From a bacterium (GTDB lineage: Bacteria > Patescibacteriota > Patescibacteriia > UBA2591 > MWDC01): 64,000 nucleotides of DNA. Location: NCBI GenBank assembly GCA_021158435.1, contig JAGGUQ010000005.1:527-64526 (forward strand), read 5' to 3'. The position numbers were made by a program, and so were the translations under genes. The notes below the pieces were generated by a model. The model worked only from the letters and a program-made list of their open reading frames with translations. It was not told where the DNA came from and searched no databases. This document shows, in pieces, positions 5,385 through 64,000 of the stretch. Positions within the stretch are counted from its first letter, which is position 1. Each line of letters starts with the position of its first letter.

Positions 5385-5455
5385 CCCCCAAACTTCCCGG
5401 AGAGACTTCCCGGAGGCAGTCTCCGGAGGTACTCCGGAATTAGACGGAATTAGAA
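5385..5455. repeat. REP-like GC-rich palindromic array (CCGGAG / CTCCGGAGG units), locus A
   Basis: cttcccggagagacttcccggaggcagtctccggaggtactccggaat; same unit family recurs at 5 other intergenic loci. Confidence 0.8.
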
Positions 5456-5554: not shown

Positions 5555-6205
5555 ATGGCTATAAGAAAGAGGCTTACAAAAAAGAAATTAACCTCCTTTA
5601 AGGTAGAAGAAGAATTGTTACGAAGAAATATTTTAATATTTTCTCCTCTTGAATTTAGACAAATTTTTAAAGTGACAAAGGAGGCAGCTGCTTTTTTTAT
5701 AAATTATAACTTAAAAAAGGGCTTTTTTATTAAATTAAGAAAAGGACTTTATTCTATGAAACATCATCCACCCTCTGAGTTAGAAATCGCTAATCGAGTT
5801 TACCAACCATCCTACGTTTCCTTAGAATACGCAATGATGTATTATCATATTATTCCTGATACTGTTTATAGTGTAACCTCTGTTACAACAAAAACAACTC
5901 GAGAATTTATTATTAATAATGTATCTTATACTTATAGTAGAATCAAAAAATCTTCTTTTACTGGTTATATAAAAAAATACTTAAACGGGAATATCGTTCT
6001 AATCGCTGAACCAGAAAAAGCTTTTATTGATTATCTTTATTTTGTTGACTTAGGGAAAAAGGTAATTTACGACCGCCTGAACATACACAATCTAACAAAA
6101 GAAAAAATGCTTAACTATGCAAAATTATTTAAGAGAAACTCATTGATAAAATTGTTAAACAACATATATGATAAGCGCCGAAGAAATAAAGAGATTATCT
6201 ATTAG
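5555..6205 (+). CDS. abiEi: AbiEi-family antitoxin / transcriptional regulator (type IV TA system)
   Basis: 216 aa; N-terminal wHTH-like region with KLRKGLYS (RGxY-type) motif, C-terminal PSYVSLEYAMMYYHIIPD domain; paralog of 55931..56518; precedes AbiEii gene with 38-nt overlap. Confidence 0.6.
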   Translation: MAIRKRLTKKKLTSFKVEEELLRRNILIFSPLEFRQIFKVTKEAAAFFINYNLKKGFFIKLRKGLYSMKHHPPSELEIANRVYQPSYVSLEYAMMYYHIIPDTVYSVTSVTTKTTREFIINNVSYTYSRIKKSSFTGYIKKYLNGNIVLIAEPEKAFIDYLYFVDLGKKVIYDRLNIHNLTKEKMLNYAKLFKRNSLIKLLNNIYDKRRRNKEIIY

Positions 6206-6905
6206 AGGGCAAACAAGCCCAACGGTTACCGCCAGAGAATATGTCCAACATTGCTTATTATCCGAACTGTACAAATTAGAAGGGGCTGAAAAGCTTCTAT
6301 TTAAAGGCGGAACTGCTTTAAGAATTATCTATCACAGCCCAAGATTCTCTGAAGATTTGGATTTTACGGGCATTCATCGCATTACTTACTATGAAATTAA
6401 GAATATTCTGACCAAAACGCTGGTCAACTTAAATAATTGGGGCTTTAAAACTGATATTAATGAAGCCAAAAAAACACCTGGGGGATATTTGGCGAATCTT
6501 AACTTCTCGTTTCTGGAATTTAAAATATCAATTAAAGTAGAAATCTCCTTTAGACAAAGCAAACAAAGACTAAAAGCAGAAATTTCCAGAATTAAAAATG
6601 AGTATATCCCATATTACGACATTATCCACCTACCGATAGAAGAAATAATTAAGGGAAAAATTAATGCTCTACTTTCACGAGCGAAAGCGCGTGATTGGTA
6701 TGATTTCTACTTCTTCCTAAATAATAGAATGCTTAGTCCTAAACAAAAAGATGTATTACCACAAATTTTACTAAAACTTAAAAGAACAAAGACAGATTTT
6801 AAAAAGGATTTAAAAAACTTTTTACCTCGCAGTCATTACTCGATACTCAAAAATTTTAAGAATAACTTAATAAAGGAAATTGAAGCTTACTCAAAAAAGG
6901 TTTAG
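6168..6905 (+). CDS. abiEii: AbiEii/AbiGii-family nucleotidyltransferase toxin (DUF1814)
   Basis: LLFKGGTALRIIYHSPRFSEDLDFTG nucleotidyltransferase motif (GGTAL..R.SEDxDF) and downstream KARDWYDFYF motif; paralog of 56493..57185. Confidence 0.75.
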   Translation: MISAEEIKRLSIRGQTSPTVTAREYVQHCLLSELYKLEGAEKLLFKGGTALRIIYHSPRFSEDLDFTGIHRITYYEIKNILTKTLVNLNNWGFKTDINEAKKTPGGYLANLNFSFLEFKISIKVEISFRQSKQRLKAEISRIKNEYIPYYDIIHLPIEEIIKGKINALLSRAKARDWYDFYFFLNNRMLSPKQKDVLPQILLKLKRTKTDFKKDLKNFLPRSHYSILKNFKNNLIKEIEAYSKKV

Positions 6906-23948: not shown

Positions 23949-24000
23949 TTCCGGAGAAAGAGATTCCGGAGTCTACCTCCGGGATGTCCAGGATGTAGAG
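23949..24000. repeat. REP-like GC-rich palindromic array, locus B
   Basis: ttccggagaaagagattccggagtctacctccgggatgtccaggatg; shares the 15-nt core ggagtctacctccgg with locus C. Confidence 0.8.
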
Positions 24001-25093: not shown

Positions 25094-25152
25094 GGACTTT
25101 CCTGGAGACTTTCCCGGAGTCTACCTCCGGAGACTGCCTCCGGGAATGGGAT
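25094..25152. repeat. REP-like GC-rich palindromic array, locus C
   Basis: cctggagactttcccggagtctacctccggagactgcctccgggaatggg. Confidence 0.8.
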
Positions 25153-46104: not shown

Positions 46105-47444
46105 AATTAACCTTTGTGAACTGCTCTACACCTAGCGGCGTAAAGCTTCCTGCTTCAAAGTCAAGGGTATTCCCTCAACTCCACAGGCGTTGATTCCCCT
46201 AGTCCCTAGGGTATTTAAAGCTAAATTAAGAATGTTTCTGGCTGCATTAATGTCTCTGTCTATTCTTAAACCGCACTTAGGACATTTATGTATTCTGGTG
46301 GCTAATGTTTTTTCAACAATATTTCCGCAACCAGAACATATTTGAGATGTATTCTTGGGATTAACTCCAATAGCCCATATACCAGCTTCCTCCGCTTTGT
46401 AGATAAGCATTTGGAGAAATCTTGCCCAAGAAGCATCAGCAATCGACCTTGAAAGATATTTATTCTTGCTCATGCCTTTGATATTTAATTGCTCAAAGGC
46501 AATGAATTGAAAGTTGCTTACTAATTTATGACTTAATTTGTGAAGAAAATCTAATCTTTGATTGGTAATTTTCTCATGCAATCTGGCTAACTTTATTCTT
46601 GATTTATTTCTGTTCTTGCTTTTTAGTTTTTTTCTAGAATGCCACCTTTGAACTCTAGCCAGTTTTTCTTCTGTTTCTTTTAAATATCTAGGATTATCTA
46701 TTTTCTCCTCTTTGTCAGTAGTAAGAAAGTTATCTAATCCCAGGTCAATCCCGAGTATATTTTTATCCTTGATGTTCTTGATATTTGGCTTAACTGGCAA
46801 TTCTTGATTAATTTCTACAGCAAAACAAGCAAACCATTTGTTAGTATTTGTTCTTCTGATGATTAGGGCTTTAATATTCCCCTTAATCTCTCGATGAAGT
46901 TTGATTTTAAGAGAACCTATTTTTGAGAGATTAAGCTTGTTATTTTTTAATTCAAAACCTGATTGGGGATAAACCATGCTATCATATCGATACTTTCCTT
47001 TAAATCTGGGATAACCTGGTTTTTGCTTTTTTCCATTTTTACTCTCTTCAACTCTTTTAAAGAAATTTTGAAAAGCTTTATCTAATCTCCTAATTACATC
47101 TTGAAGGGTTTGAGAGTAAACTTGGTTTAATTCTGGCCTTTCCTTTTTAAGTTTTGGTATTTCTTTTATCTGGTCATAGCAAGAAATCTTTGTTTTATCT
47201 TTTTCATAAGCATTTCTTCTTTGTTCTAAGCAATGATTGTAAAGCCACCTACAAAGACAAAGTTGTTTTTCAAGAAGAGTTTGTTGTGTCTTAGTTGGAT
47301 ATATTCTGTATTTGTAGGTTCTGATTAACATATTTGTTTTTGTTCCTTTAAGCTTATCTACAGTATAGCGGATTTTTCTTGTTTTTATGCCTCAGGTATA
47401 CATAACTATCATTTACTTGTCAAGAAACATTACAGGCTCTCATC
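46105..47444 (-). mobile_element. IS605-family (IS1341-like) element carrying solo tnpB, inserted between rplW and rplB
   Basis: Fills exactly the rplW-stop to rplB-start interval; GC-rich structured 3' end (candidate right end / omegaRNA scaffold) at 46105-46200; no tnpA in vicinity. Confidence 0.7.
46132..47331 (-). CDS. tnpB: IS200/IS605-family transposase accessory protein TnpB (RuvC-like RNA-guided nuclease family)
   Basis: 399 aa; N-terminal MLIRTYKYRIYPTKTQQTLLEKQL; C-terminal zinc finger CSGCG..x13..CPKCG and RuvC-III IDRDINAARNI. Confidence 0.85.
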   Translation of the reverse strand: MLIRTYKYRIYPTKTQQTLLEKQLCLCRWLYNHCLEQRRNAYEKDKTKISCYDQIKEIPKLKKERPELNQVYSQTLQDVIRRLDKAFQNFFKRVEESKNGKKQKPGYPRFKGKYRYDSMVYPQSGFELKNNKLNLSKIGSLKIKLHREIKGNIKALIIRRTNTNKWFACFAVEINQELPVKPNIKNIKDKNILGIDLGLDNFLTTDKEEKIDNPRYLKETEEKLARVQRWHSRKKLKSKNRNKSRIKLARLHEKITNQRLDFLHKLSHKLVSNFQFIAFEQLNIKGMSKNKYLSRSIADASWARFLQMLIYKAEEAGIWAIGVNPKNTSQICSGCGNIVEKTLATRIHKCPKCGLRIDRDINAARNILNLALNTLGTRGINACGVEGIPLTLKQEALRR

Positions 47445-55087: not shown

Positions 55088-55152
55088 TATTCCCGGAGCC
55101 ATCCCGGAGGTAGTCTCCGGAGGCAGCCTCCGGAGGCAGCCTCCGGGAAAGG
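55088..55152. repeat. REP-like GC-rich palindromic array, locus D
   Basis: cccggagccatcccggaggtagtctccggaggcagcctccggaggcagcctccggg; includes perfect 17-nt palindrome ccggaggcagcctccgg twice. Confidence 0.8.
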
Positions 55153-55247: not shown

Positions 55248-55952
55248 TTATCTTCCCGCCAAATAAACGTTTTTTAGTTTCTCGTCGCTTAAAACCTCTT
55301 TTCCACCCTTCAGGACAATCTTGCCGCCTTCTAAAATATAAGTCCTGTGAGCAATTTCTGCTGCTTTCTTAACATTTTGCTCAACAATAATTATTGATAT
55401 GCCTTGTTTATTAATTTCTTTTATCTTTTCAAAAATTTCTTTCATTACTTTTGGTGCTAGCCCTAAAGAGGGTTCATCTAAAAGAAGTAATTCTGGGTCC
55501 TGAATTAGCGCTCTTGCTATAGCCAACATTTGTTGTTGGCCTCCGGACAAAGTAAAAGCTCTATCATTCTGCTTTTGTTTCAAAACCGGAAATTTTTCAA
55601 AAACGTCTTCCAAGTTTCTTTTAAATAACTTATGGTCTTTCATTATAAAAGCCCCCATTTCCAAATTTTCCCGGACAGTCAACGTGGGAAATATCTGCCT
55701 TCCTTGGGGAACATAAGAAATTCCTTCATAAATCAGGTAATAAGTGGGAAGATTTGTAATATCTTTATTCTTATATTCAATAGTTCCATTATAAATCTCA
55801 CATAAGTTAAAAATACTCTTTAATAGAGTTGATTTCCCAGCTCCATTGGGCCCGATCAAAGCCACAATTTCCGCTGGCTTTACTTCTAAGTCAACCCCAT
55901 GCAATATCTCCATTCCATTGTAGCCAGACTTTAGATTTTGGATATTGAGCAT
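55248..55952 (-). CDS. livF: LIV-type (HAAT family) ABC transporter ATP-binding protein LivF-like
   Basis: 234 aa; LIGPNGAGKSTLL Walker A, LSGGQQQMLAIARAL signature, LLLDEPS Walker B. Confidence 0.85.
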   Translation of the reverse strand: MLNIQNLKSGYNGMEILHGVDLEVKPAEIVALIGPNGAGKSTLLKSIFNLCEIYNGTIEYKNKDITNLPTYYLIYEGISYVPQGRQIFPTLTVRENLEMGAFIMKDHKLFKRNLEDVFEKFPVLKQKQNDRAFTLSGGQQQMLAIARALIQDPELLLLDEPSLGLAPKVMKEIFEKIKEINKQGISIIIVEQNVKKAAEIAHRTYILEGGKIVLKGGKEVLSDEKLKNVYLAGR

Positions 55953-56518
55953 ACAATTGGTCTTAAATATTTATTAAGCCGGGTATAATCCACTCTTTTT
56001 AAATAAGTTTTTAACCTTTTTTTATTCAAGCCCTCTAAATTCATCTCCTCTATATCAAATTTAGCATAACCATTTAATGAAAGATAAGCCTGATCTAAAA
56101 GGGCTTTCTCAGGAGTCGCGACTAAATAATTAGCTTCTTTTTTATACCCCCAAAACATTCTCTCTTGTAAATGATGGTAAATCAAATTCCTCTGACTTGT
56201 TTTTATAGTTTTACTTCTATTTATAGTAGCCAAGGTCAAATGAATAGGCTTTTGGCTCATTATATTATAATAACTTAACGCCCATTCAAAAGAAAGATAA
56301 CTTGGATAATAAATTTCTACAGCTAAACTCTGCCAATCAACTTTATTAATGTTAATAGTATAAACCCCTCTGGTAATTCTAATTAACTTCTTATCTTTTA
56401 CCAACCGATTGAGAGCTACTTTTAAACTTTTATCACTAAGATTGGTAATCTTTTTTATGTCAGCAAAATAAAAATAGGTTTTGGGAATAGATTTAATTCT
56501 TTCTGCTAATTTTTTCAT
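55931..56518 (-). CDS. abiEi: AbiEi-family antitoxin / regulator (second copy), encoded downstream of its toxin
   Basis: 195 aa; ITRGVYTININ and YYPSYLSFEWALSYYNIM paralogous to 5555..6205 protein. Confidence 0.6.
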   Translation of the reverse strand: MKKLAERIKSIPKTYFYFADIKKITNLSDKSLKVALNRLVKDKKLIRITRGVYTININKVDWQSLAVEIYYPSYLSFEWALSYYNIMSQKPIHLTLATINRSKTIKTSQRNLIYHHLQERMFWGYKKEANYLVATPEKALLDQAYLSLNGYAKFDIEEMNLEGLNKKRLKTYLKRVDYTRLNKYLRPIVCSISKI

Positions 56519-57185
56519 ATAATTGTTGAATTACTGGATAATATTCTTTAGGTAAAAATACTTGTAATTCGTTCCTAAACTCTCGCTCAGAGTATTTTGG
56601 CATCTTCTCTGGCAAAACAAAATTTTCTCTTAACAACCTAGAAATATACCATAAGTCGAAAACATCTCTTGCTTTTTTTCTTTTACTTAAACTTTCTTGC
56701 TTTAGTTTTTTTAATTCTGTGATAGTTGGGACTAAAAGCAATGGCTCTAAGGCACTAACTGGGCTTTTAATTAAAGATAATTCCTTGTCTAATTTTATTC
56801 TCTTATTTGGTTTATGAATTTCTACTTTTATAGAAAATGCGTGTTTTAACTTATTGTCCTTGATTAAAAATAAAGCAAACATTGTCTTTCTTTTATCCTT
56901 AGCATCTTTCAGTTGCCAATTTTGGTTATCTTTAACTGTTTGTTTAACCAAATCTCTAAAATCCGAAAAATTTATTTTCTTTATTTGAATCAAGTCTATA
57001 TCTTCTGAAAAACGGGGTGAACCATAAACCAGCCGCAAAGCTGTTCCTCCATAGAAAATAAGCTTAGAGGAAATTTTATGCTTAGCTAGCGCATTTAAAA
57101 AAATCACTTCTGCTTCTTCCTGTAAAATTCTATCTGCTGATATTTTTATTTTTTCAACCAAATTGTTTAATGTTTCAATATCCAT
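56493..57185 (-). CDS. abiEii: AbiEii/AbiGii-family nucleotidyltransferase toxin (second copy)
   Basis: 230 aa; LIFYGGTALRLVYGSPRFSEDIDLIQ and KARDVFDLWYI motifs. Confidence 0.75.
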   Translation of the reverse strand: MDIETLNNLVEKIKISADRILQEEAEVIFLNALAKHKISSKLIFYGGTALRLVYGSPRFSEDIDLIQIKKINFSDFRDLVKQTVKDNQNWQLKDAKDKRKTMFALFLIKDNKLKHAFSIKVEIHKPNKRIKLDKELSLIKSPVSALEPLLLVPTITELKKLKQESLSKRKKARDVFDLWYISRLLRENFVLPEKMPKYSEREFRNELQVFLPKEYYPVIQQLYEKISRKN

Positions 57186-57194
57186 AGATGCGTA

Positions 57195-57218
57195 AAAGTT
57201 AACAATTTTGTTAACTTT
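57195..57218. promoter_or_regulatory. perfect inverted repeat AAAGTTAACAA-tt-TTGTTAACTTT immediately upstream of second abiEii; candidate operator
   Basis: 11-bp perfect arms seen in sequence, 10 bp upstream of start codon. Confidence 0.4.
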
Positions 57219-57240
57219 ATTGTATCATTAATCTAAACCC

Positions 57241-57306
57241 AAGTCAACTCCATGCAATATCTCCATTCCATTGTAGCCAGACTTTAGATTTTTTACTGTA
57301 AGCATA
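57241..57306 (-). pseudogene. remnant 5' fragment of livF (first ~22 codons, MLTVKNLKSGYNGMEILHGVDL) forming a direct repeat with the intact livF 5' end
   Basis: 57241-57290 matches 55889-55938 at 49/50 nt; brackets the AbiE cassette. Confidence 0.7.
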
Positions 57307-57476
57307 AAAATCAAATTTAAGATTCAAGATTAAAGACTTAAAATTATCAGATAATTATATCATATTTTCCCAAACTAAAAAGCCGGCTTCACCGGCCTTT
57401 TGGTAGTGCAACCTTTCATCTCTCAACTTTACTCTTCGTATGCCACAAATTTGCCGTTTTTAGAACTTCATTTTTA

Positions 57477-57575
57477 CTCAATTACTTCTGGTCTTCCATT
57501 GATGATTTTCTTTACAACATACCCCAAACCTACAACATCTCCATTTTTATCAAAACGGTATTTACCGATAATTAA
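57477..57575 (-). pseudogene. remnant 3' fragment of a LIV-type substrate-binding protein gene (..IIGKYRFDKNGDVVGLGYVVKKIINGRPEVIE*)
   Basis: translates to a close paralog of the C-terminus of the 57632..58699 protein; lies directly downstream of that gene. Confidence 0.65.
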
Positions 57576-57631
57576 TCTATTTTCACCATACGGCACAAAG
57601 ACCTCTTTGGCCTTCTTAGAAAATATGGATT

Positions 57632-58699
57632 CTATTCAATTAACTCTGGTTTCCCGTTAATAATTTTTTTAATTGCAAATCCTATTCCTACTACATCTCC
57701 ATTACTATCAAATCTATATTTTCCTATCACTCCATCATATTCTTCTAATCCATACAAGTAATCTCTAATACATTCAGTATTTTCTCCACACTTTTTTAAA
57801 GCATCCGCTATTATATAAACTCTATCGTAGCTTGCTCCAGCATCCCAATCACTAGCAGGTTGCCCATATCGAGCAGTGTATTTATCCACGAAAATCTTAG
57901 CTTTAGGATTTTTTAAATCCAACACAGGAACATCTTCGAATATTATCCCTTCAGCTGCGGACCCGGCTGATTTTAAAGCATCTTCCCCACTAAAAACCCA
58001 TGTGCTAAGAATTGGCACATCAATTTTCATTTCTCTAATCTGTTTTGCCGCTAACCCTCCAGTTATACCTGAATAAGCGCCTAGAAATATTAGGTCTGGA
58101 TTGCTCGCTTTTATTTTTATTAATTGAGTCCTGTAATCCTTTTCTCCCAGTCCAAAAAGCTCATCGCTTACTATTTTCCCTCTTAATTGTTCAAATTTTT
58201 CTTTAAAAACATCTCTTAATCCGATTGTGACATCTGAACTTTCTGCCAAAATTGCCGCTTTTCTGTGTCCCCTGTCGAAAGCTAATTGAGCTAAAAACCT
58301 GCCAGCATCGTCGTCTCTAGGGCCATTTCTAAAAACAAAATCTCCTGCCTCTGAAATAGCAGGATTAGACGCATAAGAGCTAAATAAAATTACTTTATTC
58401 CTTTCTGCAATCGGTGCCATAGCTAACGTTTCAGCACTAGTCGTTCCACCTAAAACTACTTTTACCCCATCAATATTTATTAATTTCTGAATAGCTGTTA
58501 CTGCAGCCTGAGCTTCACCCTTCCCATCTTCAGGAATTAATTCTAGTTGTCTTCCATTTATTCCACCATCATTGTTTATTTCCTCAACTGCAAGTTCAAT
58601 AGCGTTTAATTCGCTCTGGCCATAATTAGCAGCATCACCACTTAAAGTTCCTACAAAACCAATCTTTATAACCTCTTCTTCAGCAGGCTTTCTACTCAC
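57632..58699 (-). CDS. LIV-type periplasmic substrate-binding protein paralog, N-terminally truncated (no signal peptide/anchor; GTG start) - possibly a pseudogene
   Basis: 355 aa; begins VSRKPAEEEV, which is internal (post-anchor) in paralog 58886..60055; in-frame TAG 3 codons upstream where the paralog has TGG; REP array immediately upstream. Confidence 0.6.
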   Translation of the reverse strand: MSRKPAEEEVIKIGFVGTLSGDAANYGQSELNAIELAVEEINNDGGINGRQLELIPEDGKGEAQAAVTAIQKLINIDGVKVVLGGTTSAETLAMAPIAERNKVILFSSYASNPAISEAGDFVFRNGPRDDDAGRFLAQLAFDRGHRKAAILAESSDVTIGLRDVFKEKFEQLRGKIVSDELFGLGEKDYRTQLIKIKASNPDLIFLGAYSGITGGLAAKQIREMKIDVPILSTWVFSGEDALKSAGSAAEGIIFEDVPVLDLKNPKAKIFVDKYTARYGQPASDWDAGASYDRVYIIADALKKCGENTECIRDYLYGLEEYDGVIGKYRFDSNGDVVGIGFAIKKIINGKPELIE

Positions 58700-58718
58700 C
58701 CCCCACTAAATTCCAGCA

Positions 58719-58795
58719 ATCCGGAGGCTGCCTATTTCCGGAGGCTGCCTCCGGGATGACTCCGGGATAACCTCCAGGATGAATCTGGAATTTCT
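58719..58795. repeat. REP-like GC-rich palindromic array, locus E
   Basis: aatccggaggctgcctatttccggaggctgcctccgggatgactccgggataacctccagg; includes perfect palindrome ccggaggctgcctccgg. Confidence 0.8.
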
Positions 58796-58885
58796 AACCC
58801 TATTCCGTGCAAAATTCCCATTCCATAAAAATTCATGAAAACTTTAGTTCTTTGAAAACCTTTACGGATAAAATTATATTTTGTT

Positions 58886-60055
58886 TCATTGCTGAACCTC
58901 CTGTGGATATTTTTCCATTAATACCTCAAATTTACCATTTCTTACAATCTTAAGTCCCCAGGACTTGGTTACATCCCCATGTTCATCAAACGTTATATCG
59001 CCAGTAACAGCAGGAAAATTTTTAATTCTGTACAACATTTTCTTTATATTATCCGAACTTGGAAAAGATGCTCGTTTTATTGCATAATAAATAACATTAA
59101 AAGCATCGTACGATAATGCAGTTACAATGCCTGGTTCCTCGGTAGTGTTAAAAAACTTTTGGTACCTATCCCTGAAACTTTTAACCCTGGAGTCAGAACT
59201 TTTGATATTAAACATGATAGAACCATATATTACTCCTTCTGCTGCCTCTCCTGCAATTTTTAGAACCTCTGGATTTTCAAAATCAGCTGTACTTAAAAAT
59301 TGCGGTTTAAAACCCATTTCGTGAGATTGTCTTACTATAAACCCCAACTCCTTAGAATGCCCTACAATTAATACTACTTCGGGATTTTTAATGCTTACTT
59401 TTAAAATTATTGTCCTAAAATCAGTGTTTCCTGGTTCATATCTTTCAGTTATAATGGAATTATTTTTTAAACCTAATTCTTTCAGTCTTTGAATATATTC
59501 ATCTTTTACTGCCAATCCAAATTCATCGCCTCTGTAAATTACTCCTACTCTTTTAGCAGTGAGTTCTCTGACTGTATAATCAGCAAGCATGATGCTTCTT
59601 TTTTCGTCGCTAGGATATATCCTAAAAATATAATCACCGGCTTTGGCTATATCCTTATGTGGAGCGGTAGGGGTAAGTAAAACTACTTTGGCTTTCTCTA
59701 CAATTGGAGCTACAGAAAGGACTTCATTACTGGATAAAGGCCCGATAATAGCTTGGACTTTATCTACTGATATCAATTTTTGAACAGCAGAAACTGCTTT
59801 TTTGGAGTCTGCCTCAGAATCTTCATAAATTATACGGAGCAGCTTTCTCTCATCTAAATTAAGTTCATCCAACGCTAATTCAATACCTTTCCTTAGCTGT
59901 TCTCCCCACGTGCTGGCAGGCCCAGAAAGAGGCGCTATAATCCCAATCTTAACTACCTCTTCTTCAGCAGGCTTTCTACTCACCCCCCACCAAATTCCAG
60001 CAATAACAACAATGATTACAATCAGCCAAACGATTGTTTTTGTTGTTTTGGACAT
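58886..60055 (-). CDS. LIV-type substrate-binding protein with N-terminal membrane anchor/signal
   Basis: 389 aa; N-terminal TM helix WLIVIIVVIAGIWWG then periplasmic binding protein type I fold (GIIAPLSGPAS..). Confidence 0.8.
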   Translation of the reverse strand: MSKTTKTIVWLIVIIVVIAGIWWGVSRKPAEEEVVKIGIIAPLSGPASTWGEQLRKGIELALDELNLDERKLLRIIYEDSEADSKKAVSAVQKLISVDKVQAIIGPLSSNEVLSVAPIVEKAKVVLLTPTAPHKDIAKAGDYIFRIYPSDEKRSIMLADYTVRELTAKRVGVIYRGDEFGLAVKDEYIQRLKELGLKNNSIITERYEPGNTDFRTIILKVSIKNPEVVLIVGHSKELGFIVRQSHEMGFKPQFLSTADFENPEVLKIAGEAAEGVIYGSIMFNIKSSDSRVKSFRDRYQKFFNTTEEPGIVTALSYDAFNVIYYAIKRASFPSSDNIKKMLYRIKNFPAVTGDITFDEHGDVTKSWGLKIVRNGKFEVLMEKYPQEVQQ

Positions 60056-60905: not shown

Positions 60906-61755
60906 ATAACCCGCGTGGTTTTTTAATTAATATTAAAAGCAAAAGTAAGGCATAAATCATCTGCCTGGCTGGTCCAATAATTGATGAAGGAAAACCAACG
61001 AATCTCAATGGTTCTGGTAGTAACACTAAGATTATGGTGGCAATAATTGTGCCTTTTAATGAAGCTAAGCCACCAATAATCACAATTGCTAATACTGGAA
61101 TTAACTGTGATAAAGTAAATGAAGAGGGGTCAATAAAAGTAATATAATATGCATATAAAGAACCAGCAATTCCTGCAAAAAAAGCAGAAATCCCTAAAGC
61201 ATAACTCTTCATTTTAAAAGTATTTTTACCTAAAACCCTAGTTGCCAGTTCATCATCTCGTATTGCTTCTAATACTCTTCCAAAAGGGGATTTGGTAATT
61301 CTTGTAATGATTAAATAAGAAATTAAAGCAATAACAAAAACTAAAACTAAGAAACTAAAATTATCAGAAAAAGTAAAACCAAATAAACTTGGTTTAGGAA
61401 TTCCCGGCAACCCTAAAGGCCCTCTAGTCAAACCTGTCCAATTCAAAGTAATAGCATAAATAACAAAAGTAAAAGCCAAAGTAGCTAAAGCTAAATAGTC
61501 TCCTTTAAGTTTGTTAGTGGAAATGGCTAATAAAAAGCCAAAAAACATTGCACCTATACCAGCTAATAAAAAACAAAACCAAAAAGGTAGGCCAGCTAAG
61601 GCAAGTAAAGCTGAAATATAGGCACCAATTGCATAAAAAGCAATATGACCAAGATTAAGCAAACCAGTAAAACCAACTGACAATTGCAAGGAAATCGCCA
61701 GAATCAAATAAATCCCAATTAAAATTAATAAGTGAATTAAGTAAGCTGATATCAT
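60883..61755 (-). CDS. livM: LIV-type ABC transporter permease LivM-like
   Basis: 290 aa, ~8 TM; overlaps livG start by 23 nt. Confidence 0.8.
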   Translation of the reverse strand: MISAYLIHLLILIGIYLILAISLQLSVGFTGLLNLGHIAFYAIGAYISALLALAGLPFWFCFLLAGIGAMFFGFLLAISTNKLKGDYLALATLAFTFVIYAITLNWTGLTRGPLGLPGIPKPSLFGFTFSDNFSFLVLVFVIALISYLIITRITKSPFGRVLEAIRDDELATRVLGKNTFKMKSYALGISAFFAGIAGSLYAYYITFIDPSSFTLSQLIPVLAIVIIGGLASLKGTIIATIILVLLPEPLRFVGFPSSIIGPARQMIYALLLLLILIKKPRGLYGRIELE

Positions 61756-61758
61756 GCC

Positions 61759-62898
61759 TTATTTAATCATTAAAACTTTTTTCTTTCCATTTTCTATTAT
61801 TTTTTTTATGGCCATTGGTTTTAACACATCTCCTTTTCCATCAAAAGTAATAGTTCCTGATACACCCTGATAATTTTTTATCGTATATAATTCATCCTTT
61901 ATACAGGATGATAGATCAGTTTCTGCCTTACATTCCTTAATAGCTTTTATAATCAAATTAAAAGCATCAAAACCTTCTGCTGCATATAATGCAGGGGCAC
62001 GATTAAATTTTTCTTCAAACATATTTTCAAACTTCTCAACTTCTCTGCCCGAAGGATCTGCTTGAAGAATATAAATAACTCCATTTGCTGATTCTCCTGC
62101 TGCTTCAAGAACAAATGGATCTTCCAATGCCTCTGTTTGAAAATATAAAGGCAAGGACAATCCAAGTTCTTGGGCTTGTTTCAAAATAATAACCGAATCT
62201 GCTGGATATGATACTATTACAATAGCCTGAATATTCTGATTCTTAATTTTCATCAATTGAGTTTTAACGTCTTTTGTCCCTTGTGCGTACGATTCAATTG
62301 CAACTATTTTACCACCCAATTCTTCAAATCTCTTCTTAAAAGAATCTTTATTACCAGCACCTCCTTCGTTATTAATATACAAAATGGCTACTTTGTTTAA
62401 ACCAACGTCATTTTTTATGTAGTCTGCAAAAACCTCTCCTCTTAAAGCATCAGATGGTACAACCCTAAAAACATAATCACCCGCATCTGAAATCTTTGGA
62501 CTAGTAGAAGCGGGACTAATCAGAGGGACTTCACTTTTTTCTACAATTGGGGCTATGGCTAATGTCACAGAACTACAAACTGCTCCAATAATCGCATCCA
62601 CCTCATCTATATTAATTAATTTTTGAACAGCACTAACCCCTTTAGCTGGATCACACTGAGTATCTTCATAAATTACCTCTACTTTTTTATTATCAACTCT
62701 ATTCTTTATTAGCTCTAAAGCCAGTTCAATACCCTCTTTTGGCGGTACGCCCCATTGACTGGCCTCGCCAGTAAGAGGAGCTAAAACTCCTATTTTAACC
62801 AATCCCTCGGTGGTTTTTCCCGTACCAAATACAAAAACCAAAGCAACAATAATTGCAATAATTATTATCCCAATAATAATTTGTAGTGTCTTGCTCAT
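61759..62898 (-). CDS. LIV-type substrate-binding protein with N-terminal anchor (paralog 1)
   Basis: 379 aa; N-terminal TM IIIGIIIIAIIVALVFVF then KIGVLAPLTGEAS.. binding-protein fold. Confidence 0.8.
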   Translation of the reverse strand: MSKTLQIIIGIIIIAIIVALVFVFGTGKTTEGLVKIGVLAPLTGEASQWGVPPKEGIELALELIKNRVDNKKVEVIYEDTQCDPAKGVSAVQKLINIDEVDAIIGAVCSSVTLAIAPIVEKSEVPLISPASTSPKISDAGDYVFRVVPSDALRGEVFADYIKNDVGLNKVAILYINNEGGAGNKDSFKKRFEELGGKIVAIESYAQGTKDVKTQLMKIKNQNIQAIVIVSYPADSVIILKQAQELGLSLPLYFQTEALEDPFVLEAAGESANGVIYILQADPSGREVEKFENMFEEKFNRAPALYAAEGFDAFNLIIKAIKECKAETDLSSCIKDELYTIKNYQGVSGTITFDGKGDVLKPMAIKKIIENGKKKVLMIK

Positions 62899-62943
62899 AA
62901 AATTAGATTTAAGTTGTTAGTTATAAGATTTAAGTAAAACGAC

Positions 62944-63062
62944 CTTCCGGAACATCCCGAAGAACATCCCGGAGGCAGTCTCCGGAGGTAGGCAGTCTCC
63001 GGAGGTAGTCTCCGGAGGCAGACTCCGGGAAGTCCATGGACTTCGGGATGGAGTATCCGGGA
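62944..63062. repeat. REP-like GC-rich palindromic array, locus F (largest; includes 22-nt palindrome ccgggaagtccatggacttcggg)
   Basis: ccggaggcagtctccggaggtaggcagtctccggaggtagtctccggaggcagactccgggaagtccatggacttcggg. Confidence 0.85.
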
Positions 63063-63155
63063 GTAAAACCAACTGACAATTGTAAGGAAATCGCCAGAAT
63101 CAAATAAATCCCAATTAAAATTAATAAGTGAATTAAGTAAGCTGATATCATGCCT
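63062..63155 (-). pseudogene. duplicated 5' fragment of livM (first 29 codons plus 5 nt upstream), 93/94 nt identical to 61666..61759
   Basis: direct comparison of the two stretches in the sequence; fragment ORF then runs into the REP array. Confidence 0.8.
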
Positions 63156-63156
63156 G

Positions 63157-64000
63157 TTATTTACTATTTCTCCCAATCCCCAAAATCCCCTGATGCCTAA
63201 ATAAAAGGAAAATGAAGAGGATTGCAAAAGCAATAGCGTCTTTGTAGCCAGACGGTAAAAACCAAATGCCAAAGTTTTCAGCGAACCCCAATAAAAATGA
63301 ACCAAGAACAGCACCAGGAACAGAACCAATCCCTCCAATAATCGCTCCAGTAAAACCTTTAATCATTAAATTGGTTCCCATCATTGGTTCGAGATTCTGT
63401 TCTAAACCAACTAAAATAGCAGCTATACCAGCAATAGCCGAACCAACAATAAAAGCCCAAGAATATATGTTTTCTGCTGAAATACCAACAACTTCAGCAA
63501 CTTCTTTATTGTCAGCCACTGCCCTCATTGCTTTACCAATTTTGGTTCTTTTCATAAAGAAATAAAGCAAAACAAGTAAAACAAGAGAGACAGCAATAAT
63601 TACAATTTGCAAAGGAGTAATAATTGCTCCTAAAAAATCAAATCCTCTTGCTATTTTTACATAACCAATCGTTTTAACATCTGCCCCAAATAGCATCAAA
63701 ATTAAGGATTCAAAAAATATCAAAAGGGCAAAACTGGTCATCAGTAAAATAACTTTACTAGCTTTTCTTTGACGAAGTTTTTTGTAAACAACCTTATCCA
63801 TCAACCAACCTAAAAGAGAGGCAAAGATAATAGTAAAAATCACTGACAATCCAAAACTTAAACCTAAATCAGAAAAAAGAAAGTATAAAAAATAGGCGCT
63901 AAAAGCAATTGTTGCGCCATGAGCAAAATGAACAAACTTACAAGTCGAGTAAATCAAAGAAAAGCCACTTGCTACTAAAGCATAAATGGCTCCAGCAATT
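63157..64000 (-). CDS. livH: LIV-type ABC transporter permease LivH-like, 5' end beyond window
   Basis: multi-TM; N-terminal region contains ..IYSTCKFVHFAHGATIAFSAY (NFAHGE-type motif); reading frame stays open to window edge. Confidence 0.8.
   Translation of the reverse strand, partial: IAGAIYALVASGFSLIYSTCKFVHFAHGATIAFSAYFLYFLFSDLGLSFGLSVIFTIIFASLLGWLMDKVVYKKLRQRKASKVILLMTSFALLIFFESLILMLFGADVKTIGYVKIARGFDFLGAIITPLQIVIIAVSLVLLVLLYFFMKRTKIGKAMRAVADNKEVAEVVGISAENIYSWAFIVGSAIAGIAAILVGLEQNLEPMMGTNLMIKGFTGAIIGGIGSVPGAVLGSFLLGFAENFGIWFLPSGYKDAIAFAILFIFLLFRHQGILGIGRNSK

What the first reader, a model, noticed from the sequence alone, without database searches (positions are those of the whole stretch)
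55889..57306. Second AbiE module inserted into the 5' end of livF, bracketed by a 50-bp direct repeat, with toxin-antitoxin order reversed
The cassette (abiEii 57185-56493, then abiEi 56518-55931) sits between two copies of the first ~22 codons of livF (55889-55938 and 57241-57290, 49/50 identical). The downstream copy heads the intact gene, and the upstream copy (57241-57306) is a dead fragment. Gene order is toxin then antitoxin, opposite to the first AbiE locus and to the canonical abiEi-abiEii arrangement. A perfect 11-bp-arm palindrome (AAAGTTAACAA-tt-TTGTTAACTTT) lies just upstream of the toxin start. This looks like a recently acquired defence/addiction cassette integrated by a duplication-generating mechanism into a transporter operon. 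It is flanked further out by REP arrays D and E.
Basis: seen in the sequence. Interest (0 to 1): 0.6.

Follow-up and report, generated by a model that had tools for sequence, protein, structure and literature searches.

The report
AbiE toxin-antitoxin cassette inside livF
A 1.3-kb toxin-antitoxin (AbiE-type) defence cassette sits inside the start of a transporter gene in a Patescibacteria genome; the module is an ordinary member of a known family, but the way it is inserted leaves an instructive footprint.

Summary
A 230-aa AbiEii nucleotidyltransferase gene and an overlapping 195-aa AbiEi-like gene lie between two copies (51/52 nt) of livF codons 6-22. A perfect 11-2-11 palindrome lies upstream.

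Relatives (L058, L063, L065) have the same terminator-promoter-livF region uninterrupted, so this is an insertion. The two AbiE loci are distant paralogs (26% and 32% identity), acquired separately.

Toxin-first order is not a local rearrangement. All 11 homologous Patescibacteria cassettes examined show it, and a 2026 preprint states that RlegA, a COG5340 antitoxin, is encoded downstream of its DUF1814 toxin.

"Recent" is not supported. A strain about 97.5% identical carries the same insertion, and a substitution is shared by both repeat copies within each strain, which indicates gene conversion.

New findings:
- The cassette's -35 box (TTGACT) is built from livF codons 20-22, a microhomology junction.
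- livF has lost its promoter and overlaps the abiEi stop.
- There is no transposase, integrase or terminal inverted repeat.
- Host-sequence repeats of 45-57 nt bracket related cassettes at 4 of 9 loci.
- An unrelated MNT-HEPN module follows a livF stub broken at the same codon in another genome.

The insertion mechanism is unresolved.

The parts
57382..57396 (-). Intrinsic-terminator-like hairpin ending the upstream SBP region. It belongs to the native region upstream of livF.
   Evidence: The hairpin is listed as a terminator-like site. It is conserved in L058, L063 and L065 just upstream of their livF promoter.
57354..57364 (-). Native livF promoter, extended -10 (TATGATATAAT). It now drives the livF stub and reads into the cassette.
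   Evidence: Position. The element is invariant in the alignment with the uninterrupted relatives.
57228..57305 (-). Dead livF 5' stub: native codons 1-22, then GLD and a stop (MLTVKNLKSGYNGMEILHGVDLGLD*).
   Evidence: It is homologous to the 5' end of livF in L058, L063 and L065. nhmmer matches livF model positions 1-67 at E=6e-13.
57241..57292 (.). Upstream copy of the direct repeat (livF codons 6-22).
   Evidence: 51/52 identical to 55888-55939.
57219..57247 (-). Cassette promoter: -35 TTGACT (57242-57247, made of livF stub codons 20-22), a 17-nt spacer, and extended -10 TGATACAAT (57219-57227).
   Evidence: It is the best promoter match in the region, 10/12 with a TG extension. It aligns in register with TTGACA-17-TGATACAAT of 9 homologous cassettes, and conservation stops at the -35 box.
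57195..57218 (.). Perfect 11-2-11 palindrome between the -10 box and the abiEii start. Probable AbiEi operator.
   Evidence: A palindrome with GTTAACA/TGTTAAC-type arms occupies the same position in all 10 aligned cassettes, with arms that vary between subgroups.
56493..57185 (-). abiEii: DUF1814 nucleotidyltransferase toxin, 230 aa.
   Evidence: PF08843 at 6.9e-17 and PADLOC AbiEii at 3.5e-22. Motif residues G46 G47, R58-F-S60-E-D62-I-D64, E122, K162/R169 and R173-D174-x-x-D177 are invariant or nearly so in 25 sequences. PDB match to 4O8S/4OK0.
55931..56518 (-). abiEi-like antitoxin/repressor, 195 aa. It overlaps abiEii by 26 nt. Its last ~6 codons and its stop lie in livF codons 1-8.
   Evidence: PADLOC AbiEi at 1.3e-30 over the full length; PF13338 at 25.6 bits. 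26% identity to AbiEi of the first locus, E=7e-13. Fold matches to 6Y8Q and 1ZEL. It is 4-5 residues longer at the C-terminus than homologs.
55888..55939 (.). Downstream copy of the direct repeat, inside the intact livF.
55248..55952 (-). Intact livF (ABC ATPase, 234 aa). It has no promoter of its own and its start overlaps abiEi by 22 nt. Codons 1-5 (ATGCTCAATATCCAA) differ from the stub at 6 of 15 nt.

Best explanation
**What it is.** A toxin-first AbiE-family toxin-antitoxin / abortive-infection cassette. It runs from its promoter to its stop codon (about 1.3 kb) and sits inside the first 22 codons of livF in a Patescibacteria branched-chain-type ABC-transporter operon.

**How the module most likely works (by analogy; not tested here).**
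- AbiEii is a DUF1814 nucleotidyltransferase that arrests translation, probably by adding nucleotides to tRNA acceptor ends.
- AbiEi, a winged-helix protein with a C-terminal antitoxin domain, neutralises it, probably by inducing autophosphorylation at Ser60.
- AbiEi also represses the cassette promoter by binding the palindrome that follows the -10 box.

**What the sequence shows about the insertion.**
- The native terminator, promoter, 5' UTR and livF codons 1-22 remain upstream as a dead stub.
- The stub's last codons (GTT GAC TTG) now supply the cassette's -35 box. The left junction therefore lies in a 5-nt microhomology (TTGAC).
- The right junction lies in the last codons of abiEi, fused to a livF start.
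- The intact livF is now promoterless. It is co-transcribed with the module and probably translationally coupled to it.
- The two 51-nt copies are kept alike by gene conversion.

**What is inferred about the mechanism.** The insertion was made without its own recombinase. One joint was illegitimate and microhomology-mediated. The other event was based on livF homology. This could be homology-facilitated illegitimate recombination of transformed DNA, or a single crossover of a circularised fragment. The donor probably already had the cassette next to a livF gene of another lineage.

**Inferred consequence.** Loss of the cassette by recombination between the repeats would remove the antitoxin gene, so the module is self-stabilising.
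For: **Family assignment.**

**Mechanism of the family.**
- Motifs I-IV and GTP binding: PMC3985639.
- T65 autophosphorylation induced by AbiEi, and NTase activity: bioRxiv 10.64898/2026.01.19.700257.
- S60 sits at the T65-equivalent position, R-x-S/T-x-D-x-D.

**Family-wide features.**
- Toxin-first order with overlapping genes in 11 of 11 cassettes.
- A conserved promoter and a palindrome in the same position in all 10 aligned cassettes.

**Insertion.**
- Empty-site relatives.
- Only the window lineage and L015 carry a livF stub among the related loci scanned with nhmmer.
- The -35 box is built from livF codons.
- AbiEi is 4-5 residues longer than its homologs and ends inside livF.
- Concerted evolution of the repeats.
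- No transposase or integrase among the called genes within 10 kb; the nearest mobile-element gene is a TnpB about 8 kb away.
- No terminal inverted repeats.
- Codons 1-5 of the intact copy match MLKIQ-type livF genes of other lineages at 12-13 of 15 nt, against 9-10 for the stub.

**Comparable brackets elsewhere.**
- L051: 45-57 nt.
- L141: 49 nt at 98%, with the left edge 2 nt from the -35 box.
- L144: 54 nt at 80%.
- L135, canonical AbiE: 286 nt.
- Window SBP0: 94-102 nt.

Against: - No function was measured. Toxicity, neutralisation, operator binding and the transcript structure are all inferred.
- The NCBIfam AbiEi equivalog model is far below its cut-off (46.7 against 150 bits).
- No donor is known. 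The nearest cassette homolog is only 69% identical, and no genome with this cassette cleanly upstream of livF was found.
- Relatives are too distant (75-85% nt identity in livF) to map a recombination breakpoint.
- The donor-type reading of codons 1-5 rests on 15 nt. It could instead be divergence after the duplication.
- The narrow 45-57-nt range of brackets around four related cassettes is not predicted by a purely homology-based model.
- L015 has a livF stub broken within 1-2 nt of the same position, followed by a different TA module and without the -35 microhomology. This is unexplained.
Confidence: 0.72

Rival explanations
1. The cassette is a non-autonomous mobile element. An enzyme encoded elsewhere inserts it by making long staggered cuts, so the ~50-bp repeat is a true target-site duplication.
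For: - Four of nine independent loci carrying this cassette family have brackets of similar length: 51-52, 45-57, 49 and 54 nt.
- The bracket is host sequence and differs at each locus.
- The left edge lies 0-3 nt from the -35 box in three of the four bracketed loci.
- L015 and the window break livF at nearly the same nucleotide.
Against: - No transposase or integrase lies in or next to the cassette.
- No terminal inverted repeats exceed what shuffled sequence gives.
- No sequence beyond the promoter-to-stop unit is conserved among cassettes.
- Five of nine loci have no bracket.
- Other brackets in the same genomes are 67, 94-102 and 286 nt long.
- In the window, codons 1-5 differ between the two copies at 6 of 15 nt. 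A simple duplication does not predict this.
Confidence: 0.13
2. The livF stub followed by a cargo slot is an old structure shared by descent between the window lineage and L015. Only the cargo was later exchanged: AbiE in one lineage, MNT-HEPN plus an SBP gene in the other. The two livF segments served as flanking homology for the exchange.
For: - The repeat boundaries are the same in both genomes, from about the ATG to codon 22.
- Gene conversion can keep the repeats alike for a long time.
- SBP genes in this operon are exchanged even between strains.
Against: - No stub is present in the other related loci scanned. This includes lineages closer to the window than L015 is: L057 (87% livF identity), L058 (82%), L059 (80%) and L124 (79%).
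- The context upstream of the stub differs. The window has a terminator and promoter; L015 has an SBP stop followed by 41 nt.
- In the window the break coincides with the -35 microhomology of this particular cassette.
Confidence: 0.08
3. The second AbiE module arose by duplication and inversion of the first AbiE locus within this genome. The repeat would then be a by-product of that rearrangement.
For: Both loci encode the same two protein families.
Against: - The paralogs are only 32% (toxin) and 26% (antitoxin) identical.
- The second module is 59-69% identical to toxin-first cassettes of many other Patescibacteria.
- Those cassettes share its promoter and operator.
Confidence: 0.01
4. The arrangement is a metagenome mis-assembly across a 51-nt repeat.
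For: Several short contigs end near the repeat.
Against: - The full arrangement is assembled independently in contigs of 105.8 kb, 20 kb, 9.9 kb and 11.6 kb from different samples.
- These include a diverged strain with its own substitutions in both junctions.
- A 51-nt repeat is shorter than a sequencing read.
Confidence: 0.01

Closest known systems
AbiE (AbiEi/AbiEii) of Lactococcus lactis and Streptococcus agalactiae (Dy et al. 2014, PMC3985639; Arrowsmith et al. 2026 preprint)
   Same: - A DUF1814 nucleotidyltransferase with motifs I-IV.
- A Ser/Thr at the phospho-acceptor position.
- A partner with a winged-helix domain and a C-terminal domain that has the AbiEi fold (6Y8Q is the top fold match).
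- An overlapping bicistronic operon.
- A sigma-70-type promoter with an inverted repeat suited to autoregulation.
   Different: - The gene order is toxin first.
- The genes overlap by 26 nt rather than 4.
- There is a single palindrome between the -10 box and the start codon. S. agalactiae has two inverted repeats in its promoter.
- The partner shares only 16% identity with 6Y8Q.
- The partner falls below the NCBIfam AbiEi equivalog cut-off.
RlegTA, and the related SdenTA and SanaTA (DUF1814 toxins with COG5340-type antitoxins, found by shotgun cloning)
   Same: - The preprint read states that RlegA is encoded downstream of its DUF1814 toxin RlegT, i.e. toxin first.
- The antitoxins are short (205, 174 and 136 aa), comparable with 195 aa here.
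- RlegTA and SanaTA were reported to affect phage T7.
   Different: - They come from Proteobacteria.
- Gene order for SdenTA and SanaTA rests only on their toxin-first names, not on text read here.
- It is unknown whether they form one clade with the Patescibacteria cassettes.
MenAT systems of Mycobacterium tuberculosis (MenT1, MenT3, MenT4 with MenA antitoxins)
   Same: - DUF1814 toxins. That they add nucleotides to tRNA acceptor stems is from my own knowledge of the MenT literature.
- Neutralisation by antitoxin-dependent phosphorylation.
- Rv2827c (1ZEL) is the second-best fold match of the 195-aa protein.
   Different: - The antitoxin gene comes first.
- The antitoxins are larger.
- No sequence-level match was found.
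Homology-facilitated illegitimate recombination and insertion-duplication by single crossover in naturally transformable bacteria (own knowledge: Acinetobacter, Streptococcus pneumoniae)
   Same: - One joint lies at a microhomology of a few bases.
- The other event depends on homology with a resident gene.
- No element-encoded recombinase is needed.
- A single crossover of a circle duplicates the homologous segment.
   Different: - Those events are known from laboratory crosses and usually delete recipient DNA rather than duplicate it.
- Here the event is inferred only from junction anatomy.
- The recurring ~50-nt bracket length is not an expected feature.
Insertion sequences that make long, variable direct repeats (own knowledge: IS1634, IS1549) and mobile insertion cassettes
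   Same: Host-sequence direct repeats of tens of bases flank an insert that carries passenger genes.
   Different: No transposase gene, no terminal inverted repeats and no conserved ends were found.

Membership tests
AbiEii / DUF1814 nucleotidyltransferase toxins | Match to Pfam PF08843 above the gathering score | tested here: met
   62.6 bits against a cut-off of 22.5, E=6.9e-17. PADLOC AbiEii at 3.5e-22.
AbiEii / DUF1814 nucleotidyltransferase toxins | Motifs I-II (hG[G/S]...R..DhD), motif III (K...R) and motif IV (+DxxD), as defined in PMC3985639 | tested here: met
   Y45-G46-G47, R58-F-S-E-D62-I-D64, K162...R169 and R173-D174-V-F-D177. These residues are invariant or nearly invariant in a 25-sequence alignment.
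AbiEii / DUF1814 nucleotidyltransferase toxins | Ser/Thr phospho-acceptor two residues before the first catalytic Asp (T65 in S. agalactiae AbiEii) | tested here: met
   S60 in R58-F-S60-E-D62 is invariant in the alignment.
AbiEii / DUF1814 nucleotidyltransferase toxins | Growth inhibition by nucleotidyl transfer | not testable with these tools
   This needs expression and tRNA modification assays.
AbiEi / COG5340 antitoxins | [quoted passage not shown] | tested here: met
   25.6 bits against a cut-off of 25, which is marginal. The predicted structure has a winged-helix N-terminal domain.
AbiEi / COG5340 antitoxins | Full-length similarity including the C-terminal antitoxin domain | tested here: met
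   PADLOC AbiEi PDLC02241 at 1.3e-30, residues 20-186 against model positions 16-192 of 199. Foldseek top matches are 6Y8Q (E=1.9e-6, TM 0.51) and 1ZEL (TMq 0.66). 26% identity to AbiEi of the first locus across both domains.
AbiEi / COG5340 antitoxins | NCBIfam equivalog TAA_AbiEi (NF047376) above its cut-off | tested here: not met
   46.7 bits against a cut-off of 150, covering the N-terminal half only. AbiEi of the first locus also fails, at 21 bits.
Canonical AbiE operon | Antitoxin gene upstream of the toxin gene | tested here: not met
   The order is abiEii then abiEi, here and in all 11 homologous cassettes.
Canonical AbiE operon | Autoregulation through inverted repeats in the promoter | tested here: inconclusive
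   A palindrome is conserved in position just after the -10 box in 10 of 10 aligned cassettes. Binding and repression were not measured.
Toxin-first DUF1814/COG5340 systems (RlegTA type) | Toxin gene first, with a short COG5340-like antitoxin downstream | tested here: met
   Gene order and the 195-aa antitoxin. The precedent is described for RlegTA in the text read.
Toxin-first DUF1814/COG5340 systems (RlegTA type) | Sequence relationship to RlegT/RlegA, SdenT/SdenA or SanaT/SanaA | not tested
Transposon / insertion sequence / mobile insertion cassette | Transposase gene, or terminal inverted repeats recognised in trans | tested here: not met
   The cassette holds only two genes, and no transposase lies within 8 kb. 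Local alignment of the cassette ends does not exceed shuffled controls in four bracketed cassettes.
Integron gene cassette | Neighbouring integron integrase, and attC-type recombination sites shared between cassettes | tested here: not met
   No integrase is among the called genes. The flanking repeat is livF coding sequence, and brackets at other loci are unrelated host sequences.

The most novel reading that the evidence does not exclude
Promoter-to-stop toxin-antitoxin cassettes in Patescibacteria may spread by a recombinase-free route that has not been described. The route would leave 45-67-bp duplications of host gene ends. It would place the cassette edge at its own -35 box. It would hit particular sites repeatedly: livF codon 22 carries an AbiE module in one genome and an MNT-HEPN module in another. 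The cassette would then lock itself in by capturing the expression of the downstream host gene.
Probability: 0.2. Interest if true: 0.65.

Novelty: new member of a known kind. Interest (0 to 1): 0.42.

Why it matters
How chromosomal toxin-antitoxin and defence modules move without carrying recombinases is poorly understood.

This locus preserves both junctions of one such event:
- a 5-nt microhomology that turns host codons into the cassette's -35 box;
- a host gene start fused to the antitoxin stop;
- flanking repeats kept alike by gene conversion.

Similar brackets around related cassettes make the question testable by a genome survey.

The locus also shows a transporter ATPase gene that has become dependent on a selfish module for its transcription. 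This is a simple way for such a module to become hard to lose.

The module itself adds nothing new to AbiE biology, beyond showing that the toxin-first form is abundant in Patescibacteria.

Tried and rejected
- **Sequence search of the 195-aa protein against PDB.** The single sequence and a 33-sequence profile gave no AbiEi match. Only the fold search did.
- **NCBIfam.** There was no hit for AbiEii, and AbiEi fell below the cut-off.
- **Terminal inverted repeats at the cassette ends.** None exceeded shuffled controls.
- **Search for further livF stubs.** nhmmer over the related loci fetched from genomes and metagenomes found only the window lineage and L015. The weaker hits are livG paralogs.
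- **Mapping a recombination breakpoint in livF.** The relatives are too distant, at 65-89% identity per 99-nt window.
- **Base composition as a sign of foreign origin.** The cassette has 29% GC against 32-37% for its neighbours, but GC3 is similar, so the result is not informative.
- **Internal promoter for abiEi inside abiEii.** The only candidate lies downstream of the abiEi start.
- **Literature search for bracketed toxin-antitoxin cassettes.** Nothing relevant was found in the library.
- **In-situ duplication of the first AbiE locus.** Rejected because of the 26% and 32% identity.
Full report
**1. The observation**

The window comes from a Patescibacteria contig (JGI 3300017593, Ga0187538_155970, 105.8 kb). 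Relatives are labelled Paceibacterota, Nealsonbacteria and similar.

On the minus strand, a branched-chain-type ABC-transporter operon reads as follows:

| Element | Coordinates |
|---|---|
| Permease | 63957-63157 |
| Binding protein SBP0 | 62898-61759 |
| Permease | 61755-60883 |
| livG | 60905-60123 |
| SBP1 | 60055-58886 |
| SBP2 | 58699-57632 |
| abiEii (230-aa ORF) | 57185-56493 |
| abiEi (195-aa ORF) | 56518-55931 |
| livF | 55952-55248 |

- The direct repeat is 55888-55939 versus 57241-57292, 51/52 identical.
- The upstream copy is part of a 25-codon ORF, 57305-57228 (MLTVKNLKSGYNGMEILHGVDL|GLD*).
- The downstream copy heads the intact livF.
- The palindrome AAAGTTAACAA-TT-TTGTTAACTTT lies at 57195-57218.
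- The arrangement was assembled independently in several samples.

**2. What the two genes are**

*The 230-aa protein.*
- It matches Pfam AbiEii at 62.6 bits against a cut-off of 22.5, and PADLOC AbiEii at 3.5e-22.
- It carries the motifs defined for AbiEii/DUF1814 in PMC3985639: G46-G47, R58-F-S60-E-D62-I-D64, K162/R169 and R173-D174-x-x-D177. These are invariant or nearly so in an alignment of 25 sequences.
- S60 occupies the position of T65. A 2026 preprint identifies T65 as the site of antitoxin-induced autophosphorylation that switches off S. agalactiae AbiEii.

*The 195-aa protein.*
- It only just passes Pfam AbiEi_4 and fails the NCBIfam equivalog.
- It matches a PADLOC AbiEi model over its full length at 1.3e-30.
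- It is 26% identical to the upstream protein of the first AbiE locus across both domains.
- Its AlphaFold2 model (pLDDT 92.5) has AbiEi 6Y8Q and Rv2827c 1ZEL as its best fold matches.

So the pair is an AbiE-family module.

The two AbiE loci of the window are distant paralogs (32% and 26% identity). They were acquired separately.

**3. Gene order**

The toxin-first order is not local.
- AbiEii has 1848 database relatives. The best 120 are 59-69% identical (apart from one 99% same-species cluster), 227-236 aa long, and come from Patescibacteria where named.
- The partner has 369 relatives of 182-207 aa apart from one 142-aa fragment.
- I looked up nine of these relatives, which gave 10 further cassettes at eight further loci. 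With the window that makes 11 cassettes at nine loci. In all of them the ~230-aa gene is followed by an overlapping ~190-aa gene.
- The 10 aligned cassettes share TTGACA, a 17-nt spacer and TGATACAAT. A palindrome follows directly after the -10 box.
- The palindrome arms are GTTAACA/TGTTAAC in most cassettes and ATTAWCA/TGTTAAT in a subgroup. This is the pattern expected of an operator that co-evolves with its repressor.
- The 2026 preprint states that RlegA, a COG5340 antitoxin, is encoded downstream of its DUF1814 toxin RlegT. It groups SdenTA and SanaTA with it. The reversed order therefore has precedent.

**4. It is an insertion**

- The stub and the 110 nt upstream of it align with the region directly upstream of an intact livF in L058, L063 and L065. 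This region comprises the hairpin terminator, TATGATATAAT and the 5' UTR.
- L058 also has an SBP1 ortholog (92% identity) and a second SBP, followed by an uninterrupted livF.
- An nhmmer scan of the related loci fetched from genome and metagenome collections found a livF stub in only two lineages: the window lineage (with its near-identical contigs) and L015.

**5. Junction anatomy**

*Left junction.*
- In the alignment of 10 cassette promoters, conservation begins exactly at the -35 hexamer.
- In the window that hexamer is TTGACT, formed by livF stub codons 20-22 (GTT GAC TTG). It sits at the same 17-nt spacing from the -10 box.
- It is the best promoter match in the region.
- The intact livF also reads GTTGACTTA. 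The left junction therefore lies in a shared TTGAC.

*Right junction.*
- AbiEi is 4-5 residues longer than its homologs.
- It ends at a TAA inside livF codons 7-8. The cassette's own stop was lost.
- livF starts 22 nt before the abiEi stop, with no promoter of its own.

No transposase or integrase lies nearby. The cassette ends show no inverted repeats.

**6. Age**

- Contigs L055 and L056 are about 97.5% identical to the window in nucleotides and carry the same insertion.
- In that strain both repeat copies read TCC where both window copies read TCT.
- The one mismatch between the window copies (GGA/GGG) is absent in that strain.
- By my rough estimate, the chance of a parallel change at the same site in both copies is about 0.01. 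This is evidence for gene conversion between the copies.
- Near-identity of the repeats therefore does not date the event.
- The event is older than this strain split. It is younger than the split from L058-like species.

**7. Codons 1-5**

- Stub and intact copy differ at 6 of 15 nt in codons 1-5, but at 1-2 of 51 nt in codons 6-22.
- The intact copy (ATGCTCAATATCCAA) matches the MLKIQ-type starts of L124, L064, L059 and L062 at 12-13 of 15 nt. The stub matches them at 9-10.
- This suggests that the cassette arrived together with the first codons of another lineage's livF. The evidence is thin, and divergence at the edge of a converted tract is an alternative.

**8. Similar footprints elsewhere**

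*Within the same operon.*
- SBP0 is bracketed by a 94-102-nt repeat (61666-61765 and 63062-63163, 97-99% identical).
- The upstream copy is a stub of the first 30 codons of the next permease gene. A REP array follows it.

*Around related toxin-first cassettes*.
- L051 has a 45-57-nt bracket.
- L141 has 49 nt at 98% identity. It is the 3' end of a TrmB-like gene whose stop lies 2 nt from the -35 box.
- L144 has 54 nt at 80% identity.
- L047 is syntenic with L051, and L138 is syntenic with L141.
- The tally is four bracketed loci out of nine. L135, L142, L146, L148 and L149 show none.

*Other cases.*
- A canonical AbiE in L135 is bracketed by 286 nt.

*L015.*
- This is a different Patescibacteria genome, with 75% livF identity.
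- It carries a livF stub, MLKVQNLKAGYNGMEILHGVDL*, broken within 1-2 nt of the window's breakpoint.
- The stub is followed by an MNT-HEPN pair and an SBP gene, then the intact livF.
- The -35 microhomology does not explain that case. It remains unexplained.

*L062.*
- It has a HicB-HicA pair cleanly between its SBP and livF, with no stub.

**9. Mechanism**

*Shown:*
- family membership;
- toxin-first order;
- the conserved promoter and palindrome;
- the insertion;
- the chimeric -35 box;
- the loss of livF's own promoter;
- concerted evolution of the repeats.

*Inferred by analogy with AbiE and MenAT:*
- a nucleotidyltransferase toxin acting on translation;
- neutralisation through Ser60 phosphorylation;
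- repression through the palindrome.

*Inferred for the insertion:*
- One joint is illegitimate, at TTGAC.
- The other event is based on livF homology. It could be homology-facilitated illegitimate recombination, or a single crossover of a circular fragment.
- I give about 0.5 to this class of mechanism, about 0.13 to an unknown enzyme making long target duplications, and less to the others.

**10. Verdict**

The module is a new member of a known kind. Its reading of the gene order and of the age needs correcting. The interesting part is the insertion footprint and its recurrence.

Noticed in passing
window 61666-61765 and 63062-63163 (with 62895-63338): SBP0 (62898-61759) is bracketed by a 94-102-nt direct repeat that is 97-99% identical. 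The upstream copy is a stub of the first 30 codons of the permease gene 61755-60883. It sits right after the stop of the preceding permease and is followed by a REP array. This is the same architecture as the AbiE insertion.
   Followed up: partly
window 57425-58850; L055 4388-5521: SBP2 lacks its signal-peptide start. A REP array abuts codon ~18, and TGG has become TAG just upstream of the GTG start. It is followed by one clear leftover SBP 3' end (57474-57596) and a second seen only by eye (~57425-57457). A weak livF-like fragment (58789-58826, 74% identity, nhmmer E=0.12) precedes it. Strain L055 has a different, full-length SBP (39% identity) in this slot, so SBP genes are swapped between strains.
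   Followed up: partly
window 58659-58720 vs 59943-60004; L011 99-4890; L012, L015, L058, L092, L096, L119: Tandem SBP paralogs that are only 26-45% identical as proteins share near-identical 5' ends of 60-165 nt, up to 100% identical. These cover the signal-peptide coding region. The pattern suggests gene conversion or cassette exchange at a conserved 5' segment.
   Followed up: no
window 5409-5427, 23965-23983, 25113-25144, 55103-55147, 58720-58770, 62968-63029: GC-rich palindromic REP family TCCGGAGGCAGCCTCCGGA: 19 matches against 0 in shuffles. Arrays sit at cassette junctions in the liv operon, and one lies 130 nt upstream of the first AbiE locus.
   Followed up: no
L015 4041-4817: A livF stub broken at the same codon 22 is followed by an unrelated MNT (101 aa) plus HEPN/DUF86 (114 aa) toxin-antitoxin pair, then an SBP gene, then the intact livF.
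   Followed up: partly
L062 1195-1713: A HicB-like (93 aa) and HicA-like (76 aa) pair, judged by eye from the sequence, lies cleanly between the SBP gene and livF. It ends 4 nt before the livF ATG, with no stub. This is a third toxin-antitoxin family at the same junction.
   Followed up: no
L135 305-590 and 2248-2533; L138, L141, L142, L149: A canonical-order AbiE pair in L135 is bracketed by a 286-nt repeat (92% identical) of the 3' end of a TrmB-like gene. TrmB-family genes lie directly upstream of the toxin-first cassette in L138, L141 and L142, and nearby in L149.
   Followed up: no
L148 2392-6275: A toxin-first AbiE cassette lies between separate PPDK_N and PEP-utilizers ORFs. These may be a split phosphoenolpyruvate synthase-type gene. 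No flanking repeat was found.
   Followed up: no
L016 1118-1334 and 7012-7228 (also L078): A 217-nt perfect direct repeat with internal inverted repeats flanks a whole 5.9-kb liv operon.
   Followed up: no
window 46132-47331 (minus): A 399-aa TnpB/IS605 OrfB-type gene sits inside the ribosomal-protein gene cluster, between the L23 and L2 genes (gene tables).
   Followed up: no
window 5555-6905 (plus): The first AbiE locus has the canonical order (216-aa AbiEi, 245-aa AbiEii). No flanking direct repeat of 30 nt or more was found.
   Followed up: partly
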